NCBI GenBank assembly: GCA_001029715.1
Contig: CP011212.1
Coordinates: 398,936 to 462,935, forward strand
Reading direction: 5' to 3'
Length of the DNA: 64,000 bases
From: a candidate division TM6 bacterium GW2011_GWF2_28_16
Lineage (GTDB): Bacteria > Patescibacteriota > Microgenomatia > UBA1400 > PJMF01
The notes beneath the pieces were generated by a model that was given only the letters and a program-made list of their open reading frames with translations, had not been told where the DNA came from and did not search any database. A program made the position numbers and the translations under genes. Shown in pieces: positions 17,780 through 48,786 of this stretch (position 1 is its first letter; each line of letters starts with the position of its first letter).

Positions 17780-19996
17780 CTAAGAAATTTGATTAAAAAG
17801 TTGATCAGAAACTTCGCTTAATTTAATTTGTAGCGGAGGACCAGATGGATCAATAGGCTCATGTTTAAAACCAATTAAAGCAATGTTTTCTGAGCTGTTA
17901 TCTTTTTCATTCATGGGGTTCACTGTATTATCAATTCCCAGCATAGTTTCTCTAATTTGCGTTTTAATGGTTTTGACTCTGGATTCATCCCAGTTTCCAG
18001 GATTAATCTTGCCTTCAAGTCTTTTGAGAGAAGACAGGATAATACGTTTAAGGGTTTTATCTTCAAGAGTATCCAAATATTTAAGATCTTGCTGAGCTAA
18101 ATAAAAATGTTTGTTAAGTTTTAATAGAGAATAACCAAATTCTTCTTCAACTTCTGAGTTGATACTCGAACTTGGGTTGTCCCAGTCTTTTGGTTGATAT
18201 GAATATGGTAAGACATAAAGATGGGAGCTATTAGTAACTTCTTTTCGTTGATAGTCTTCCATCTGTTCTATTTCTGTTGTTCTATTTTCTGCAATTGGCT
18301 TAGCTGCAATAGTCGAGTTTTGATAAAGATCGCGATTTTTAATTGCTAATAGATATGAAAAAACTACTCTTTCTATCCAAGCTTTTTCAGTAGGAGCTAA
18401 TTTAGATAAGGTTGGAGTTTCCATCTGTTCATTGATTCCAAAAGTAAACACTCTTTTGCCTAGTTGCAAAGAAACTTGTAAATTGTGAGGGCTGACAGTG
18501 CGCTTGAAAGTAAGTTGTTTCAAGCCAACTTGAAACAATAATTTGTCCTGACCCTGAGACTGATCAAGGTTTACACTAATACCTCTTTTGGAAACAGGGA
18601 ACATTCCACCCCTAGCTTGGTCTTTGAGTTCTGTTAGCGGAGTGGTTTCATTTAAATTTAATTCAGGACGAAGAAAAGCTAAAACAGCTGCAACTTCGGT
18701 TACTTCTAATGGTTTGTTAGATAAATTAAGTAAATGAGGAAGATTGGTTCTAAATTCTGCAAGCGAAGATGGATCTAATTCGTCTAAATTATCTAGAGTA
18801 ATATTTCCTCTCCAAGTCAGAAGAATATTTTCTTGATTATTAACAGTTTTTGAGGGGAGTACAAAACCACCAAAATTGCCTTCTTTTTTTATTAGAAGCA
18901 ATTCTTCTTCCATAATGAATTCAATCAGCTTATTTGCCAAGGGATCATGAGTAAAATTGTCAGATTTTTCACAAAATGCTGTCAGATTTTGTTCTGACCC
19001 TGTCATTTTGGCAAAAGAATCTAAACCAGCCGATCTTACGTTTTTGTTAAAAATGCGGTCATCAGCTAAAGAAATAGGAGGACATTCAAAAACTTTTCTT
19101 AAAATTATTTCTTTGGCTTTTGATTTTTTGAGATTAACCCTCATTTGGGCTTGTCTCTCTTTTCTTCTAGAGCTGACATGAGTAATCGTTAATTTTCCGT
19201 TTTCATCATATTTTCCACGACTATCTACTGCTACATAAGCACTCAGGGCGTCAAATGTTTCCAGAACATACTGAGCCTGACAACGCATTTTATAGTCAGG
19301 GTGATGGAGCCGTGTAAAACTAAGAGCGTCGAACAAATTATAGGAGTTTTCTATTTTGTCGTAACCTAAGTCCTCAAATGTTTCTAAAATTATTAATTGT
19401 TTTTCGCGATCTTTACATTTTAAAATTTCTGAAGAAAGCCGATAAAGATTGCTAATAATTTTTTTGAAAGGGAGATCGTCAATTTTTGGAATGGCCTGCT
19501 CCGGAGTTCCCTTCCTTTTTCTTTTTTTATCAGTTTCGTTTTTTGGATCAAATTCTTCTTGATTAATTGATCCTCTAATTCCATTAATTCGAGATTGAGT
19601 AGCAGCATCTTTTAATAAAGGTGAGACAGCATCAGTGCCTTGATTAAAATACTCAATTTTATCTTTATGTTCTTGAAAAAATTTATCTAAAGTGTGGTCG
19701 AAAATTTGGAAATCAGACATGCCCATATTTGTTGCAAGAATCAAAGCTTCTTGGTATTTAGCACTCAACTTAGAGTTTAGACCATTTATTAGAAAAGCAA
19801 ATTCATCATGGCTGCACCAGTGTTGTTCTTTTTGATCAGAGAGAAGTTCTAAAACCTTATCTAAGATTTTTTCTTCAAATTCTTCTAAAAGAAGATAAGA
19901 ACTTTCTTTAATTCCCGCATAAATTGGCAACAGATCGGAAAATTTTTGTGCCCGCTCAATTTGTTGATAATTTTCTAGTGGCTCACTTTCGCTCAT
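17780..19996 (-). CDS. Large orphan protein (738 aa), no recognisable domain
   Basis: Uninterrupted 2.2-kb ORF with no TM segments, P-loop or catalytic motif that I can recognise. Confidence 0.6.
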   Translation of the reverse strand: MSESEPLENYQQIERAQKFSDLLPIYAGIKESSYLLLEEFEEKILDKVLELLSDQKEQHWCSHDEFAFLINGLNSKLSAKYQEALILATNMGMSDFQIFDHTLDKFFQEHKDKIEYFNQGTDAVSPLLKDAATQSRINGIRGSINQEEFDPKNETDKKRKRKGTPEQAIPKIDDLPFKKIISNLYRLSSEILKCKDREKQLIILETFEDLGYDKIENSYNLFDALSFTRLHHPDYKMRCQAQYVLETFDALSAYVAVDSRGKYDENGKLTITHVSSRRKERQAQMRVNLKKSKAKEIILRKVFECPPISLADDRIFNKNVRSAGLDSFAKMTGSEQNLTAFCEKSDNFTHDPLANKLIEFIMEEELLLIKKEGNFGGFVLPSKTVNNQENILLTWRGNITLDNLDELDPSSLAEFRTNLPHLLNLSNKPLEVTEVAAVLAFLRPELNLNETTPLTELKDQARGGMFPVSKRGISVNLDQSQGQDKLLFQVGLKQLTFKRTVSPHNLQVSLQLGKRVFTFGINEQMETPTLSKLAPTEKAWIERVVFSYLLAIKNRDLYQNSTIAAKPIAENRTTEIEQMEDYQRKEVTNSSHLYVLPYSYQPKDWDNPSSSINSEVEEEFGYSLLKLNKHFYLAQQDLKYLDTLEDKTLKRIILSSLKRLEGKINPGNWDESRVKTIKTQIRETMLGIDNTVNPMNEKDNSSENIALIGFKHEPIDPSGPPLQIKLSEVSDQLFNQIS

Positions 19997-42368: not shown

Positions 42369-43499
42369 ATGAAATCAGCTATTTATGCTTTTTCTGGCGA
42401 TCCAATTACCTTCGGTCATCTTGATGTTATTCAGCGTGCAGCAGCAGTTTTTGATCGCTTGGTGGTAGCGATTGGTCTTAATCCTGCTAAAAAATATCTT
42501 TTTTCTCAAGAAAAACGCACTGAAATGGCGCGTAGATCCCTTTTGACTCTTAAAAATGTAGAAGTGAAATCTTTTCAAGGAATGTTGGTGGATTTTGCTT
42601 ATGAAAATAATATTGATGTGATTGTCAAAGGAGTTAGAAGTGCTCAGGATTTTGAGTATGAGCAAAGCTTACACAGCTTAGGTGAAAGCCAGAAACTTGG
42701 AATAGATACTTTTATTCTTTTTGCTAAACCGTCATTGGCACATATTAGTTCAAGCGCGGTCAAAGAAATTCAGCAAGAACAAGGCTTAATTCAAGATTAT
42801 GTGCCAAGCTATGTTAAACAATGCGTCGAAGCCAAGTTGAGTGAGCAATTCATTGTTGGTCTAACTGGTGAGATTGGAGTTGGGAAATCTTATCTTGGGC
42901 AAAAAATGGTAGCTTTGGCTCAAAAAATGGGTTTAGAAGCACATAACATTGAGTTAGATCATTTGTCTTGGCAAATTCAGTCAGATCTTAAAGAAGAAAA
43001 ATATGAAGTAGTCAGAAAAAAAATTATTGATACTTTTGGTGCAGAAATTGCCAATAATGATGGCAGTATTAACCGTAAGATTTTGGGTGAAATTGTTTTT
43101 GCCAATCAAAAAAAATTAGATAAACTCAATGAAATTATGGAGACTCCAATTTTAGTGCGTTTACGTAGAGAGCTAAAAAATAAGAAAGGTTTAATTTTTC
43201 TTAACGCAGCTTTACTAGTTGAGGCACAAATGAGCCAGCTTTCTAATTACAACACGATTTTGCTCGGTGTGGATGAAAAAACTCAGCAAGAGCGACTTCT
43301 AGAAAGAGGATTAAACAAAGAGCAAATTAAAAGAAGATTAAAAAGTCAGTATGATTTTGCTAATAAGAAAAAGAATTTGCAAAAAGAAATTGAGATGAGC
43401 AAGCAAGGTAAACTTTGGACTTTGAATAAGAAAAATGTTACTGGTGAAGAAATGAAAAAACTATTAAATGAGCTTTTGCTTTATTTTGGCATCAATTAG
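42369..43499 (+). CDS. coaD: Bifunctional phosphopantetheine adenylyltransferase / dephospho-CoA kinase (CoaD-CoaE fusion)
   Basis: Residues 1-160 align to E. coli CoaD (YAFSGDPITFGHLDVIQRA, VKGVRSAQDFEYE, ISSSAVKE). Residues from about 165 carry the CoaE P-loop IVGLTGEIGVGKSY and continue DPCK-like. Confidence 0.85.
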   Translation: MKSAIYAFSGDPITFGHLDVIQRAAAVFDRLVVAIGLNPAKKYLFSQEKRTEMARRSLLTLKNVEVKSFQGMLVDFAYENNIDVIVKGVRSAQDFEYEQSLHSLGESQKLGIDTFILFAKPSLAHISSSAVKEIQQEQGLIQDYVPSYVKQCVEAKLSEQFIVGLTGEIGVGKSYLGQKMVALAQKMGLEAHNIELDHLSWQIQSDLKEEKYEVVRKKIIDTFGAEIANNDGSINRKILGEIVFANQKKLDKLNEIMETPILVRLRRELKNKKGLIFLNAALLVEAQMSQLSNYNTILLGVDEKTQQERLLERGLNKEQIKRRLKSQYDFANKKKNLQKEIEMSKQGKLWTLNKKNVTGEEMKKLLNELLLYFGIN

Positions 43500-46574: not shown

Positions 46575-46764
46575 ATTACCGCTTGCGCTGATTCTCAATT
46601 CTTGCTACTTTAATTATTGCTGTGGAACATAGTGAAAATCTATGACTGTGCCGCAACGGTAATTCCTTTTTAAGGATTAGTCCGATCTTCAGCAAAAGAG
46701 AAATCTTGACGAGCATCGAGGCTGTATATTTTACTGTCGATGCTCCCTAAAGGGGAGCTTTTTT
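46575..46764 (+). ncRNA. Candidate structured RNA (riboswitch-like leader or sRNA) ending in an intrinsic terminator
   Basis: A long-range helix pairs ATTACCG-c-TTGCG (46575-46587) with CGCAACGGTAAT (46652-46663). Internal hairpin CATAG/CTATG, and hairpin TCCTT/AAGGA. A 9-bp helix GAGCATCGA(46711-46719)/TCGATGCTC(46737-46745) shares 4 nt with the terminator GCTCCC(46742-46747)/GGGAGC(46753-46758)+T6. Confidence 0.4.
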
Positions 46765-46780
46765 GTTCAAAGAACCACGG

Positions 46781-46799
46781 CTATTAATATTATTAATAG
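46781..46799. promoter_or_regulatory. Perfect 19-nt palindrome CTATTAATATTATTAATAG over a candidate -10, nested in AACCACG/CGTGGTT arms (46773-46813)
   Basis: Read directly. Candidate promoter TTGTTC(46763-46768)-16 nt-TAATAT(46785-46790). The RBS AAGAAAGG and ATG 46841 follow. Confidence 0.5.
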
Positions 46800-46840
46800 T
46801 TATCTTCGTGGTTAATTTCTGCGAAGTAAGAAAGGTTTTT

Positions 46841-47542
46841 ATGAACACAAAAGCTATCGAAATGGCAGGCAGTATTGGAATTGAGCTAAGCCAAATAAAT
46901 TCAGAATGGACTTCTCTTCAAAGCATTGATTCTTCTTCAATATTAGAGAATGCAGGTAAGGAAGCAGGCATAGAAGATCGTCAGTGGCAAAAATTGCTTT
47001 CTCAAGCTGGTTCTTGGGTGATTGATGGTTTGGATAAAAAGATATTTGAAATACAAAATAAAGTAATTGAGCAAACAACTGCCATTGAGTTAAGAAAAAT
47101 GTTTGGTGTTCCACTTTCATTGCTAGCAATGCCTGTTTTTGTAGAGTTGGCAGGAATGGAATTGGCAGCGAAAATTGATTTGAAAAAAGAAGCCATGATG
47201 ACCTCTCAAATTTGGGAACAAATTAATAACAGAGTTTTATATATGGTTCAACTTTTCTTAGCAGAGCAAATCAATTTGGTCGAAGATGAAGAAAAAGCTC
47301 ATCAGAGTGCTTTGAGTGAATCAAAGAAAGAAGCCGACGGAGTCTCTGGTTTATCAGAAACGGTGGGAGCTGTGGAGAATCAATTTGCTTCAAAGCTGGA
47401 AAAACTAAAAGATAAGAAAGAATCTTTAATAAGTGTTTTCAAAAAGATTGGTGGAGATTTAGTTAATACTGTTGAGAGAGCTTTTGAGACTACTGTTTTT
47501 AGTGCGAGTAGGCAAAGTACTGCTGTTACGGTGATTCAATAA
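46841..47542 (+). CDS. Hypothetical helical protein (233 aa from ATG 46841)
   Basis: The track ORF begins at a TTG inside the terminator/promoter region. ATG 46841 has the RBS AAGAAAGG. No family recognised. Confidence 0.5.
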   Translation: MNTKAIEMAGSIGIELSQINSEWTSLQSIDSSSILENAGKEAGIEDRQWQKLLSQAGSWVIDGLDKKIFEIQNKVIEQTTAIELRKMFGVPLSLLAMPVFVELAGMELAAKIDLKKEAMMTSQIWEQINNRVLYMVQLFLAEQINLVEDEEKAHQSALSESKKEADGVSGLSETVGAVENQFASKLEKLKDKKESLISVFKKIGGDLVNTVERAFETTVFSASRQSTAVTVIQ

Positions 47543-47547
47543 ACTTG

Positions 47548-47618
47548 ATCCCGGGCCAGGATTTGAACCTAGAATAATTGATTCAGAGTCAATTGTGATG
47601 CCATTTCACTACCCGGGA
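47548..47618 (-). tRNA. tRNA-Gln (anticodon CUG)
   Basis: The reverse complement TCCCGGGTAGTGAAATGGCATCACAATTGACTCTGAATCAATTATTCTAGGTTCAAATCCTGGCCCGGGAT folds as a cloverleaf. It has a U1-A72 pair (typical of bacterial tRNA-Gln), anticodon loop CTCTGAA and T-loop TTCAAAT. Confidence 0.88.
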
Positions 47619-47690: not shown

Positions 47691-48356
47691 ATGAAAAAAA
47701 TATTAATTTTAGAAAATGACTGGACTCTTTTATCTTCTTTAAGCGATTTTTTAAAAAAGAAGGGACATTTATCTTATTGTTCTCAATCTATAAAAAGAGC
47801 TGAAGAATTACTCAAAAAAAAGACCTTTGATTTATTTTTATGCGAAAGGGTTTTGCCAGATGGAGATACTTTAGATTTATTAGAAAAAATGAAAGAAAGA
47901 AAGCTTTTTACGAGAGTTTTAGTTTTTAGTTCTAAAAAATCTTTAGTAGATCGGATTGCTACATTAAAATTAGCAGATGATTTTATAGCCAAACCATTTA
48001 ATTTTACGGAATTAACTTTAAAAATAAAGAATATCTTATGTTTAGAAAAAATAAGAGATCAAGATTTTTTTGAAAATTCATTTCTCTCGCTTAAAGAAGA
48101 TAGTTTTTTTACTGATAAAGTAAATCATTTTCGTCCTCAAGAATTAAAAATTTTAGAATGTTTCTCTAAGCATAGAAATTTTGTTATTTCGTATGAAACC
48201 ATATCCTCTTATGTTTGGGGCTATAAAGAAACAATTCCTCTTAAAAAAACAATTAGTGTTTATATTAGAAGAATAAGAATAAAGCTTCCAAATAATTTTA
48301 AGATAGAAACAATTAAAAATAGAGGATATAGATTTATTAATTTAAAGGAAAAATAA
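47691..48356 (+). CDS. OmpR-family response regulator with Glu in place of the phospho-acceptor Asp
   Basis: A receiver domain plus a C-terminal winged helix (IETIKNRGYRF). Aligned to the OmpR consensus, DLVLLD becomes DLFLCE. The conserved S/T (VFSS) and K (AKPF) are retained. Confidence 0.8.
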   Translation: MKKILILENDWTLLSSLSDFLKKKGHLSYCSQSIKRAEELLKKKTFDLFLCERVLPDGDTLDLLEKMKERKLFTRVLVFSSKKSLVDRIATLKLADDFIAKPFNFTELTLKIKNILCLEKIRDQDFFENSFLSLKEDSFFTDKVNHFRPQELKILECFSKHRNFVISYETISSYVWGYKETIPLKKTISVYIRRIRIKLPNNFKIETIKNRGYRFINLKEK

Positions 48357-48786
48357 TTCTAAAAGTGGCACCTTTATTTTTTTTAGAAATAATTTCTAAT
48401 TTAGCTTTAAATTCCTTTTCTAAAATTTCATTAATTTGGAACATATTTGAATTGGAGTTTTTTTCTCTAAATAAAAACCCTTTTTGTTTGACTAGTGCTT
48501 TTTCTAAAAAAGACAGGCCAATTCCTCCACCCGTTATACTTATTGAAAGTTTTTTTGAACTTTCGATATTGCTAGTAATTAGAATTACTTTATTTTCTGA
48601 ATTGCTATTTGGATAAGCTTGTTCTGCATTCTTTATTAGTTTGTTTAGTAATTCTTCAAAAATATATTTTTTGCCAGGAATTCTAATTTCATTAGGAAGA
48701 TCAATTTTCAAAATGTAAACAAACTTCTTTTGCTTGATACGTAAAATGTTGGTGGTTTTTATAATTATTTCTCCAACATTTTTCAT
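48337..48786 (-). CDS. Stand-alone HATPase_c-domain protein (truncated kinase or RsbW/SpoIIAB-like)
   Basis: 149 aa with N-box-like LLNKLIKNAEQA, G-box ITGGGIGL and a C-terminal GATFRIIFP. There is no DHp/H-box. Its 3' end overlaps the response regulator 3' end by 20 nt. Confidence 0.55.
   Translation of the reverse strand: MKNVGEIIIKTTNILRIKQKKFVYILKIDLPNEIRIPGKKYIFEELLNKLIKNAEQAYPNSNSENKVILITSNIESSKKLSISITGGGIGLSFLEKALVKQKGFLFREKNSNSNMFQINEILEKEFKAKLEIISKKNKGATFRIIFPLN

What the first reader, a model, noticed from the sequence alone, without database searches (positions are those of the whole stretch)
46575..46764. Riboswitch-like structured RNA: 12-bp closing helix, internal hairpins and a terminator/antiterminator pair, of no class I can name
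ATTACCG-c-TTGCG (46575-46587) pairs with CGCAACGGTAAT (46652-46663) and encloses about 64 nt containing the hairpin CATAG-TGAAAAT-CTATG. A short TCCTT/AAGGA hairpin follows. Then comes a 9-bp helix, GAGCATCGA/TCGATGCTC (46711-46745). Its 3' arm shares GCTC with the 5' arm of a clean intrinsic terminator, GCTCCC-TAAAG-GGGAGC-T6 (46742-46764). A P1-closed domain followed by mutually exclusive helices is the standard aptamer plus expression-platform layout. It lies between the histidine kinase gene and an orphan gene flanked by the response regulator. I found no match to the conserved cores of TPP, purine, SAM, FMN, c-di-GMP, ZTP, guanidine, fluoride, Mn or glycine riboswitches. Alternatively it is a terminated sRNA or the structured 3' UTR of the kinase mRNA.
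Basis: seen in the sequence. Interest (0 to 1): 0.55.

Follow-up and report, generated by a model that had tools for sequence, protein, structure and literature searches.

The report
Vitamin B12 riboswitch before unknown gene
The structured RNA belongs to the well-known vitamin B12 (cobalamin) riboswitch family and sits, with its own promoter and a terminator, in front of a conserved protein of unknown function in tiny 'CPR' bacteria; the RNA class is ordinary, but the gene it controls and the direction of its switch are unknown.

Summary
Rfam places window 46597-46756 (+) in the cobalamin riboswitch clan: RF01482 AdoCbl, 55.6 bits against a gathering score of 50. The same element precedes every recoverable relative of the downstream gene. 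In 19 distinct sequences, 14 of 22 aptamer pairs show compensatory changes.

Its 3' arm is the invariant P5/P6 core. Its 5' arm overlaps a conserved -35 box. The pairing decays from 12 to 5-8 Watson-Crick pairs in relatives.

The 9-bp helix (a P13 equivalent) and the terminator share GCUC in all 19 sequences. The two folds are nearly isoenergetic. Locking the aptamer in silico does not shift their balance. Coupling is therefore probably tertiary, through a kissing loop.

This layout matches the published activating corrinoid design. I lean towards B12-activated read-through (about 45%) over repression (about 35%).

The controlled 233-aa protein has no known family. Its predicted fold is weakly like AhlC/ClyA.

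Verdict: a new member of a known kind, of moderate-to-low interest.

The parts
46583..46611 (+). Inferred sigma-70-type promoter: -35 TTGCGC (46583-88), 17-nt spacer, extended -10 TG (46603-04) and TACTTT (46606-11). Predicted transcription start about 46616-19.
   Evidence: In 13 aligned loci the invariant bases are TTG (-35), TG, and TA..TT (-10). The spacing is fixed while the spacer sequence varies. The same pattern (TGaTATTTT) is seen in distant L023 in a different genomic context. This is inferred from conservation; no transcript data were available.
46617..46695 (+). Cobalamin riboswitch aptamer, compact class-II type. P3 46617-22/46690-95; J3/4 UGGAA 46623-27; P4 46628-32/46640-44 with L4 UGAAAAU; P5 46647-49/46653-55 with L5 GCC 46650-52; P6 46657-59/46682-84; P6-extension hairpin 46664-68/46672-76; J6/3 AUCUU 46685-89.
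   Evidence: Rfam RF01482 scores 55.6 bits against a gathering score of 50. My own covariance-model alignment of 19 distinct sequences has 95.9% of cells paired and 14 of 22 pairs with compensatory change. None of 500 shuffles reaches that score.
46696..46710 (+). Purine-rich linker, then the invariant AAUCUUGAC. UCUU 46705-08 can pair with AAGG 46750-53 to extend P13.
   Evidence: In L025 one change is consistent with compensation (UCG with CGG; read directly).
46711..46745 (+). P13-equivalent hairpin GAGCAUCGA/UCGAUGCUC, acting as antiterminator. It has a variable insert in its loop. CGAG 46717-20 is the candidate kissing-loop partner of L5.
   Evidence: It aligns to the final hairpin of the RF01482 model, including the conserved loop motif CGAGG. 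The stem is invariant in the homologs.
46742..46764 (+). Intrinsic terminator GCUCCC-UAAAG-GGGAGC plus U6. Its 5' arm shares GCUC (46742-45) with the 3' arm of P13.
   Evidence: Found by the terminator scan. The stem is invariant and the loop variable in the homologs. It is nearly isoenergetic with P13.
46765..46840 (+). Rest of the leader: conserved box GUUCAAAGAACCACGGC (46765-81), hairpin H1 (46779-801), hairpin H2 (46804-11/46819-26), and Shine-Dalgarno AAGAAAGG (46828-35).
   Evidence: H2 has 3 compensatory pairs within one clade. CCACGGC 46775-81 is complementary to GCUGUGG 46619-25.
46841..47542 (+). Regulated gene: a 233-aa all-helical protein of a small uncharacterised family restricted to CPR/Patescibacteria metagenome bins.
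   Evidence: 50 clusters at 44-100% identity. About 40 clusters at 50% identity among 1.84 billion representatives. No Pfam, NCBIfam, PHROG, PADLOC or PDB-sequence match. AlphaFold2 pLDDT 86.
46575..46587 (+). Not part of the riboswitch; it overlaps the region just upstream of, and including, the -35 box.

Best explanation
This is a compact class-II (Cbl-IIb-like) cobalamin riboswitch, transcribed from its own promoter. It controls the downstream 233-aa gene in cis through a bistable expression platform.

Shown:
- The aptamer is a four-way junction (P3-P6) of the cobalamin clan.
- It is followed by a P13-equivalent hairpin whose 3' arm shares GCUC with the 5' arm of an intrinsic terminator, so only one of the two can form.
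- The two folds are nearly isoenergetic.
- The aptamer has no secondary-structure link to either fold.

Inferred:
- The corrinoid-bound aptamer contacts the hairpin by a kissing interaction. The candidate is L5 5'-CCG (46651-53) with 5'-CG(A)G (46717-20), the A bulged.
- That contact stabilises P13, P13 then acts as the antiterminator, and RNA polymerase reads through.
- The gene would therefore be switched ON by B12.

I put the identity (cobalamin riboswitch acting in cis on this gene) at 0.9 or more. I put the ON sign at about 0.45, against about 0.35 for OFF.
For: Identity:
- RF01482 scores above the gathering threshold in the window.
- A cobalamin-clan hit lies upstream of the homolog in 13 of 16 related loci. 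In two of the other three the upstream region is cut by the contig end. The third, L015, carries the same element and is matched by my own model R1.
- Six of seven loci of more distant relatives pass gathering; the seventh, L025, scores 36.5 bits.
- 14 of 22 aptamer pairs covary, with 0 of 500 shuffles reaching the score.

Own promoter: conserved TTG-17-TGnTAnnTT. The unit also occurs with a divergently oriented upstream neighbour.

Bistability: the GCUC overlap is invariant in 19 sequences. The energy difference between the P13-enforced and terminator-enforced folds is -3.9 to +2.3 kcal/mol in 13 loci.

No secondary-structure coupling: mean P13/terminator probabilities are 0.45/0.52 with a free aptamer and 0.49/0.50 with a locked one. 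This leaves a tertiary contact as the link.

Kissing-loop candidate:
- CGAG is invariant in 17 of 19 sequences (L004 has CGAAG, L025 has CGAU), although its partners in the 3' arm vary without compensation.
- It matches the conserved loop CGAGG of the RF01482 model, whose L5 consensus is uCcCg.

Sign: Kennedy et al. [quoted passage not shown] They built working activating switches by that rule.
Against: - Nearly all characterised cobalamin riboswitches repress. Only one natural activator was known in 2023.
- The proposed kissing loop has only 3 G-C pairs and a bulge. Both partners are invariant, so it cannot be tested by covariation. In L025 it drops to 2 pairs.
- The CG of CGAG is also paired at the top of P13. 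In L023 all of CGAG is paired.
- The same paper notes that corrinoid expression platforms use several mechanisms, and that one tested model failed.
- In the window and 6 of 12 other loci, the post-terminator box can pair with the ribosome-binding region (-10 to -13.6 kcal/mol). It can alternatively pair with the aptamer's 5' strand. That reads more naturally as an OFF logic.
- No ligand binding, transcript ends or expression data exist.
Confidence: 0.45

Rival explanations
1. Same cobalamin riboswitch, same gene, but a conventional OFF switch: corrinoid binding favours the terminator. One way is that the kissing contact pulls CG(A)G out of the top of P13, weakening the antiterminator. In read-through mRNA, the conserved post-terminator box would either pair with the unliganded aptamer's 5' strand (translation on) or, when the aptamer is locked by ligand, pair with the ribosome-binding region (translation off).
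For: - The prior from characterised cobalamin riboswitches favours repression.
- In EutX/Rli55, which I recall as the source of the best-matching Rfam family, AdoCbl stabilises termination (PMC5821096).
- The 35 nt after the terminator are most complementary to the 5'-terminal aptamer segment in 14 of 17 loci. Shuffle p is 0.001-0.01 in 9 of 12 loci.
- Box-to-TIR (translation-initiation region) duplexes of -9.8 to -13.6 kcal/mol occur in 7 of 13 loci.
- The window's full-leader minimum-energy fold sequesters GG of the Shine-Dalgarno sequence and the AUG.
Against: - P13 and the terminator are mutually exclusive. The only documented effect of ligand on P13 is stabilisation, which here would prevent termination.
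- Locking the aptamer does not favour the terminator at the secondary-structure level.
- Box-to-TIR pairing is weak (-2.5 to -6.2 kcal/mol) in 6 of 13 loci. Cognate pairs are only slightly better than non-cognate pairs (-8.4 against -6.6).
Confidence: 0.35
2. The promoter, aptamer and terminator form a free-standing riboswitch-containing small RNA of about 148 nt that acts in trans, as EutX/Rli55 does. The downstream gene would have its own promoter in the AT-rich region after the terminator.
For: - A strong invariant terminator closes a discrete unit.
- A weak promoter-like match lies at 46766-46793.
- EutX/Rli55 is a precedent, and it too sits beside a two-component system.
Against: - The element precedes the same gene family in every locus recovered, including different genomic contexts.
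- The second promoter-like site is not conserved in the way the first one is.
- The neighbouring response regulator is OmpR-type, not ANTAR.
- The two-component genes are absent in L018 and L023.
- No ANTAR-type dual hexaloop hairpins were noted.
Confidence: 0.05
3. One reading: a riboswitch of a new, unnamed class whose aptamer is closed by the 12-bp helix 46575-87/46652-63.
For: The helix is perfect in the window, with a duplex energy of -13.8 kcal/mol. It appears in the centroid fold of the isolated sequence.
Against: - Rfam assigns the region to a known clan.
- The helix decays in relatives, has no compensatory change, and conflicts with P5/P6.
- Its 5' arm overlaps the conserved -35 box.
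Confidence: 0.02
4. It is merely the structured 3' UTR and terminator of the histidine kinase mRNA, with no ligand sensing.
For: It starts 15 nt after the kinase stop codon (46560), and no terminator lies in between.
Against: - The unit is present where no kinase lies upstream (L018, L023).
- It has a conserved promoter.
- The aptamer is under covariation-type constraint.
Confidence: 0.02

Closest known systems
Rfam RF01482 'AdoCbl' riboswitch (clan CL00101). From memory, this is the Cbl-IIb type of the Enterococcus/Listeria eut loci, i.e. EutX/Rli55.
   Same: - It is the best-scoring family and passes the gathering score in the window and in 15 related loci.
- It shares the compact four-way junction and the short hairpin extension of P6.
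- Its final hairpin carries the conserved GCAUCGAGG motif.
- It regulates through an intrinsic terminator.
   Different: - In EutX the final hairpin of the structured RNA is itself the terminator and is stabilised by AdoCbl. Here that hairpin overlaps a separate downstream terminator and competes with it.
- L5 is UGCCG instead of the UCCCG consensus.
- There is no P1 or J1/3 beyond a 6-bp closing helix.
- The host is a CPR bacterium, and the target is a protein gene, not an ANTAR-sponging sRNA.
Alkalihalobacillus halodurans cobT activating corrinoid riboswitch (Kennedy et al. 2023, mBio 14:e01588-23)
   Same: [quoted passage not shown]
   Different: - The cobT kissing loop (GCCCG with UGGC) was proven by mutation. 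Here the contact is only a candidate.
- No sequence relationship between the two expression platforms was tested.
- The sign of the present switch is untested.
Rfam RF01689 AdoCbl-variant / Cbl-IIa (env8 hydroxocobalamin riboswitch, PDB 4FRN)
   Same: It has a minimal aptamer of about 80 nt. Four of the related loci (L001, L023, L024, L026) score best against this family.
   Different: Cbl-IIa has a bulged J1/3, and its P6 usually ends in a loop (PMC7367189). Here P6 carries a short hairpin and there is no J1/3, which fits the description of Cbl-IIb better.
Priestia megaterium metE repressing corrinoid riboswitch (same paper)
   Same: A transcriptional platform made of P13 and an intrinsic terminator.
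   Different: In metE the 3' side of P13 pairs with the terminator's 5' side to form a separate antiterminator, and P13 and the terminator coexist in the bound state. Here they overlap.

Membership tests
Cobalamin riboswitch clan (Rfam CL00101) | Covariance-model score at or above the curated gathering threshold | tested here: met
   The window scores 55.6 bits against 50 for RF01482. 12 related loci score 50.4-63 bits, and L001 scores 46 against 36.5 for RF01689. Six of seven further loci pass; L025 is below threshold at 36.5 bits.
Cobalamin riboswitch clan (Rfam CL00101) | Four-way junction P3-P4-P5-P6 supported by covariation | tested here: met
   In 19 distinct sequences, compensatory changes occur in P3 (5 pairs, all from L025), P4 (4 pairs) and the P6 extension (5 pairs). 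P5 and P6 are invariant. 95.9% of cells are paired and 0 of 500 shuffles reach the score. The alignment was fitted to the model, which favours the structure somewhat. An independent MAFFT alignment gave 6 compensatory pairs.
Cobalamin riboswitch clan (Rfam CL00101) | Conserved core sequence: J3/4 UGGAA, L4 GUGAAAAUC, GCC-A-C.G around P5/P6, and the B12-box core AGUC.G.UCUU | tested here: met
   The cmscan alignment shows these positions matching the consensus with high posterior probability. They are invariant in the homologs.
Cobalamin riboswitch clan (Rfam CL00101) | L5-L13 kissing loop linking the aptamer and the expression platform | tested here: inconclusive
   The candidate is CCG 46651-53 with CG(A)G 46717-20. 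Both sides are invariant, so no covariation is possible. A canonical GGC/CGG partner is present in the P13 loop only in the window and L012. An alternative CGGC lies after the terminator.
Cobalamin riboswitch clan (Rfam CL00101) | Binds a corrinoid and changes gene expression | not testable with these tools
   This needs in-line probing or ITC, and transcription or reporter assays.
Cobalamin riboswitch clan (Rfam CL00101) | Association with B12 transport, biosynthesis or B12-related enzymes | tested here: inconclusive
   The regulated gene has no known family. No B12 gene was seen among the neighbours examined.
Cbl-I subclass | P2 loop-stem-loop and a long P7-P11 extension of P6 (PMC7367189) | tested here: not met
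   The aptamer is only 79 nt. P6 carries a single 5-bp hairpin and there is no P2 arm.
Cbl-IIb subclass (AdoCbl-selective) | Short paired or mismatched J1/3 and a short hairpin extension of P6 (PMC7367189) | tested here: inconclusive
   The hairpin extension of P6 is present. P1 and J1/3 are absent if transcription starts at about 46616. Ligand selectivity cannot be read from sequence.
Activating corrinoid riboswitch layout (Kennedy et al. 2023) | [quoted passage not shown] | tested here: met
   GCUC 46742-45 belongs to both helices. This is invariant in 19 sequences.
Activating corrinoid riboswitch layout (Kennedy et al. 2023) | Corrinoid increases read-through and expression | not testable with these tools
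   No expression or transcription assay was possible.
EutX/Rli55-type riboswitch sRNA | An ANTAR-binding dual hairpin downstream and an ANTAR response regulator partner | tested here: not met
   The neighbouring regulator is Response_reg plus Trans_reg_C, i.e. OmpR type. The unit also occurs without any two-component genes. What lies downstream is a conserved protein gene.
ClyA/AhlC alpha-pore-forming toxin superfamily (for the regulated protein) | Elongated helical bundle with a hydrophobic head, and significant structural similarity | tested here: inconclusive

The most novel reading that the evidence does not exclude
A corrinoid-ACTIVATED class-II riboswitch, conserved across a lineage of CPR/Patescibacteria. 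It would be only the second natural activating cobalamin riboswitch. It would switch on a previously unrecognised B12-responsive protein family with an AhlC/ClyA-like, possibly membrane-active fold, linking B12 sensing to how these host-dependent bacteria interact with or extract nutrients from their hosts. I put the ON sign alone at about 0.45. I put 'the protein is truly ClyA-like and membrane-active' at about 0.25.
Probability: 0.12. Interest if true: 0.75.

Novelty: new member of a known kind. Interest (0 to 1): 0.35.

Why it matters
The headline claim, a riboswitch of an unknown class, does not hold. This removes a false lead. Three things remain of value.

- **A B12-linked protein family.** A small, entirely uncharacterised CPR protein family is tightly tied to a B12 sensor in every locus examined. 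Guilt by association of this kind has previously led to new B12 transport and salvage proteins (my own recollection of the field, not checked here).
- **A possible activating switch.** The expression platform has the layout that was experimentally shown to give activation by corrinoids. If confirmed, it would be a second, independently evolved natural example, and in a very different phylum.
- **CPR physiology.** CPR bacteria are thought to depend on hosts for cofactors. A B12-responsive gene is therefore a direct handle on that physiology.

Tried and rejected
I tested it on 13 loci and rejected it.
- **Canonical kissing-loop partner in the P13 loop.** A GGC/CGG partner is present only in the window and L012. 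I rejected it as a conserved feature.
- **Terminator loop as L13.** Its sequence is variable, so I rejected it.
- **Secondary-structure coupling.** Partition-function probabilities of P13 and the terminator are unchanged when the aptamer is locked. I rejected this kind of coupling.
- **Relay of UCUU/AAGA pairings through the linker.** L015 and L016 have all-A linkers, so the relay is not conserved. I dropped it.
- **Post-terminator box pairing with the ribosome-binding region as a universal feature.** It is strong in 7 of 13 loci. Cognate pairs are barely better than non-cognate pairs. I keep it as a lineage-specific possibility only.
- **A second promoter after the terminator.** Only weak, unconserved matches were found.
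- **Functional link to the flanking histidine kinase and response regulator.** The unit occurs without them, so I rejected it.
- **Naming the protein.** Pfam, NCBIfam, PHROGs, PADLOC, PDB sequence search and an exhaustive profile search found nothing annotated.
- **AFDB fold search.** It was unavailable.
- **Literature.** Searches found no paper combining cobalamin riboswitches with CPR or Patescibacteria.

Full report
**Observation.**
- The 12-bp pairing 46575-87/46652-63.
- The hairpin CATAG/CTATG (46628-32/46640-44).
- The hairpin TCCTT/AAGGA (46664-68/46672-76).
- The 9-bp helix GAGCATCGA/TCGATGCTC (46711-19/46737-45).
- The terminator GCTCCC/GGGAGC plus T6 (46742-64), which the terminator scan also reports.

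The 215-nt stretch folds somewhat better than shuffles (z = -2.6).

**Identity.** A scan of the whole window against Rfam gives one riboswitch hit. It is RF01482, 'AdoCbl (Cobalamin/B12) riboswitch aptamer', at 46597-46756 on the + strand. It scores 55.6 bits against a gathering score of 50, with the full model matched.

The alignment assigns the parts as follows.
- UUGCUG/CAGCAA (46617-22/46690-95) is the closing helix P3.
- UGGAA is J3/4.
- UGU-GCC-GCA is P5/L5.
- CGG/CCG is P6.
- AGUCCG-AUCUU is the B12-box/J6/3 region.

Cobalamin was not among them.

**Comparative evidence.** The ORF downstream starts at ATG 46841, preceded by AAGAAAGG, and ends at 47542. It encodes a 233-aa protein. Relatives form 50 clusters at 44-100% identity, all unnamed.

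I recovered 16 loci encoding relatives from genome and metagenome collections. All come from CPR/Patescibacteria bins labelled Microgenomates, Pacebacteria or Parcubacteria.
- Thirteen loci have a cobalamin-clan hit above gathering 100-270 nt upstream of the gene.
- Two of the other three are cut by a contig end.
- The third, L015, visibly carries the same element and is matched by my own model.

An exhaustive profile search found more distant family members. For those whose DNA could be fetched, the riboswitch is again present. That includes L023, where the upstream neighbour is a divergently oriented Peptidase_M23 gene and there is no kinase, regulator or tRNA.

I built a covariance model from 17 aptamers and used it to align all 21 copies, of which 19 are distinct.
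- 95.9% of cells are paired.
- 14 of 22 pairs have compensatory changes: 5 in P3 (all from L025, ACUAC/GUAGU), 4 in P4, and 5 in the P6 extension.
- None of 500 shuffles reaches the observed score, and all slid controls collapse.
- An independent MAFFT alignment of 13 loci already gave 6 compensatory pairs.
- P5 and P6 never vary, so they are neither supported nor contradicted.

- The 3' arm of the proposed 12-bp helix (CGCAACGGTAAT) is the invariant P5 3' arm, junction and P6 5' arm. The helix is therefore incompatible with the supported fold.
- Across 13 loci it has no compensatory change, 5 of 12 positions break, and it does no better than shuffled controls.
- It has 12 Watson-Crick pairs only in the window. 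Other lineages keep 5-8, and the duplex energy falls from -13.8 to between -1.9 and -9.8 kcal/mol.
- Its 5' arm lies on what the alignment indicates is a promoter. TTG of a -35 box (46583-85), a fixed 17-nt spacer of variable sequence, TG (46603-04), and TA..TT of a -10 box (46606-11) are invariant. The same extended -10 pattern is seen in L023 and L025.
- This places the inferred transcription start at about 46616-19, right at P3. The promoter is an inference from conservation. The consensus scanner did not flag it.

**Expression platform.** After a purine-rich linker come three conserved elements:
- the invariant AAUCUUGAC;
- the P13-equivalent hairpin;
- the terminator.

GCUC (46742-45) belongs both to the 3' arm of P13 and to the 5' arm of the terminator, in all 19 sequences. 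Because it must pair with two different GAGC partners (46711-14 and 46755-58), the invariance of all three segments is expected.

Enforcing either fold gives energies within -3.9 to +2.3 kcal/mol of each other in 13 loci. The element is therefore poised between the two.

Locking the aptamer in silico does not move the balance. Mean probabilities of P13 and the terminator are 0.45/0.52 with a free aptamer and 0.49/0.50 with a locked one, across 18 loci. No secondary-structure relay links sensor and switch. That leaves a tertiary contact, which is the documented mode for this class: the L5-L13 kissing loop.

A canonical GGC partner for L5 exists in the P13 loop only in the window and L012. The better candidate is CG(A)G at 46717-20.
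- It is invariant in 17 of 19 sequences, even though its partners in the 3' arm vary without compensation.
- It corresponds to the conserved loop CGAGG of the RF01482 model, whose L5 consensus is uCcCg.
- It could form three G-C pairs with L5 CCG (46651-53), with a bulged A.

This step is inferred and untestable by covariation.

**Sign of the switch.** Kennedy et al. 2023 (PMC10653944) dissected one repressing and one activating corrinoid riboswitch.
- In the repressor, the 3' side of P13 pairs with the terminator's 5' side when unbound.
- In the activator, P13 and the terminator share bases, and P13 stabilised by the kissing loop is the antiterminator.
- Synthetic activators built on that rule worked.

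The present element has the activating layout. Four points count against that reading:
- the strong prior that cobalamin riboswitches repress;
- the weakness of the proposed kissing loop;
- the authors' caution that several mechanisms exist;
- the downstream leader, described next.

I therefore commit to activation at about 45%, against about 35% for repression. The remainder covers trans action or no regulation at this step.

**Downstream leader.**
- Between the terminator and the Shine-Dalgarno sequence lie a conserved box (46765-81) and two hairpins, H1 (46779-801) and H2 (46804-26).
- A hairpin in the position of H2 is predicted in all 13 leaders despite different sequences. It has 3 compensatory pairs within one clade.
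- CCACGGC (46775-81) is complementary to GCUGUGG (46619-25), the 5' strand of P3 plus J3/4.
- In 14 of 17 loci, the aptamer 11-mer most complementary to the 35 nt after the terminator is this 5'-terminal segment. Variant boxes (CACAGC, CACAGCAA, CGCAGUAA, AUUCC-GCAA) keep the complementarity.
- Shuffle p values are 0.001-0.01 in 9 of 12 loci.
- In three leaders the minimum-energy fold uses this long-range pairing, together with UCUUCA:UGAAGA.
- In the window the box can instead pair with the GG of the Shine-Dalgarno sequence and the AUG (-13.6 kcal/mol). Such pairing is strong in only 7 of 13 loci.

I cannot say what this long-range complementarity does. It may add a translational or stability layer. 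It is the main reason I keep the OFF model alive.

**The regulated gene.**
- No Pfam, NCBIfam, PHROG, PADLOC or PDB-sequence match was found for it or its relatives.
- The family is small: about 40 clusters at 50% identity among 1.84 billion representatives.
- AlphaFold2 gives a confident all-helical model (pLDDT 86, pTM 0.73) with helices of 31, 72 and 55 residues.
- The most conserved, hydrophobic segment (FGVPLSLLAMPVFVEL) lies at the turn between the first two long helices.
- Generic coiled coils score almost as well, so this is a lead, not an assignment.

**Context.**
- The window is ordinary chromosome of a small-genome anaerobe. It carries pyruvate formate-lyase, ADP-forming acetyl-CoA synthetase, a P-type ATPase, SecDF, RecJ and a CCA-adding enzyme.
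- The kinase and the OmpR-type regulator flank the unit in several genomes. They are absent in L018 and L023. They are therefore neighbours, not partners.
- A tRNA-Gln(CTG) gene converges on the gene's stop codon in the window. A tRNA gene lies in that position in all 16 first-round loci.

**Verdict.** The feature is real and functional, but it is a member of one of the best-known riboswitch classes. What remains open is the sign of the switch, the meaning of the post-terminator complementarity, and the function of the B12-linked protein family.

Noticed in passing
window 46775-46781 against 46619-46625 (also L001-L023): The conserved box just after the terminator (CCACGGC) is complementary to the 5' strand of the aptamer's closing helix plus J3/4 (GCUGUGG). 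In 14 of 17 loci this 5'-terminal segment is the aptamer 11-mer most complementary to the post-terminator 35 nt, and variant boxes keep the complementarity. Its function is unexplained.
   Followed up: partly
window 46765-46777 against 46834-46847: In the window, UGUUCAAAGAACC can pair with GGUUUUU-A-UGAACA, which covers the end of the Shine-Dalgarno sequence and the start codon (-13.6 kcal/mol). Comparable pairing exists in 7 of 13 loci only.
   Followed up: partly
window 46779-46801 and 46804-46826: Two hairpins lie between the terminator and the ribosome-binding site. H2 is conserved in structure but not in sequence, with compensatory changes. CGUGG 46807-11 could alternatively pair with CCACG 46775-79.
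   Followed up: partly
window 47547-47618 (-): A tRNA-Gln(CTG) gene converges on the regulated gene and starts 5 nt after its stop codon. A tRNA gene lies in this position in all 16 first-round loci, but not in L023.
   Followed up: partly
L025 about 205-265, compared with window 46685-46710: In the most divergent copy, the J6/3 motif AUCUU and the similar motif in the linker before P13 (AAUCUUGAC) have both become AUCGA. The two similar segments appear to change together. This rests on a single lineage and is unexplained.
   Followed up: no
window 48337-48786 (-): A 149-aa ORF overlapping the 3' end of the response-regulator gene matches only the ATPase half of a histidine kinase (HATPase_c, weak). 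An ORF of similar size lies in the same position in L017 and L026.
   Followed up: no
window 17780-19996 (-): A 738-aa ORF with no Pfam or PADLOC match at all.
   Followed up: no
window 42369-43499 (+): An apparent fusion of phosphopantetheine adenylyltransferase (CTP_transf_like) and dephospho-CoA kinase (CoaE) in one 376-aa ORF. It is conserved in the syntenic loci L017 and L018.
   Followed up: no
window 46841-47542, residue 154: An invariant histidine (EEKAHQ) sits in the long central helix of the B12-regulated protein. It is a conceivable cobalt ligand if the protein binds a corrinoid. This is pure speculation.
   Followed up: no
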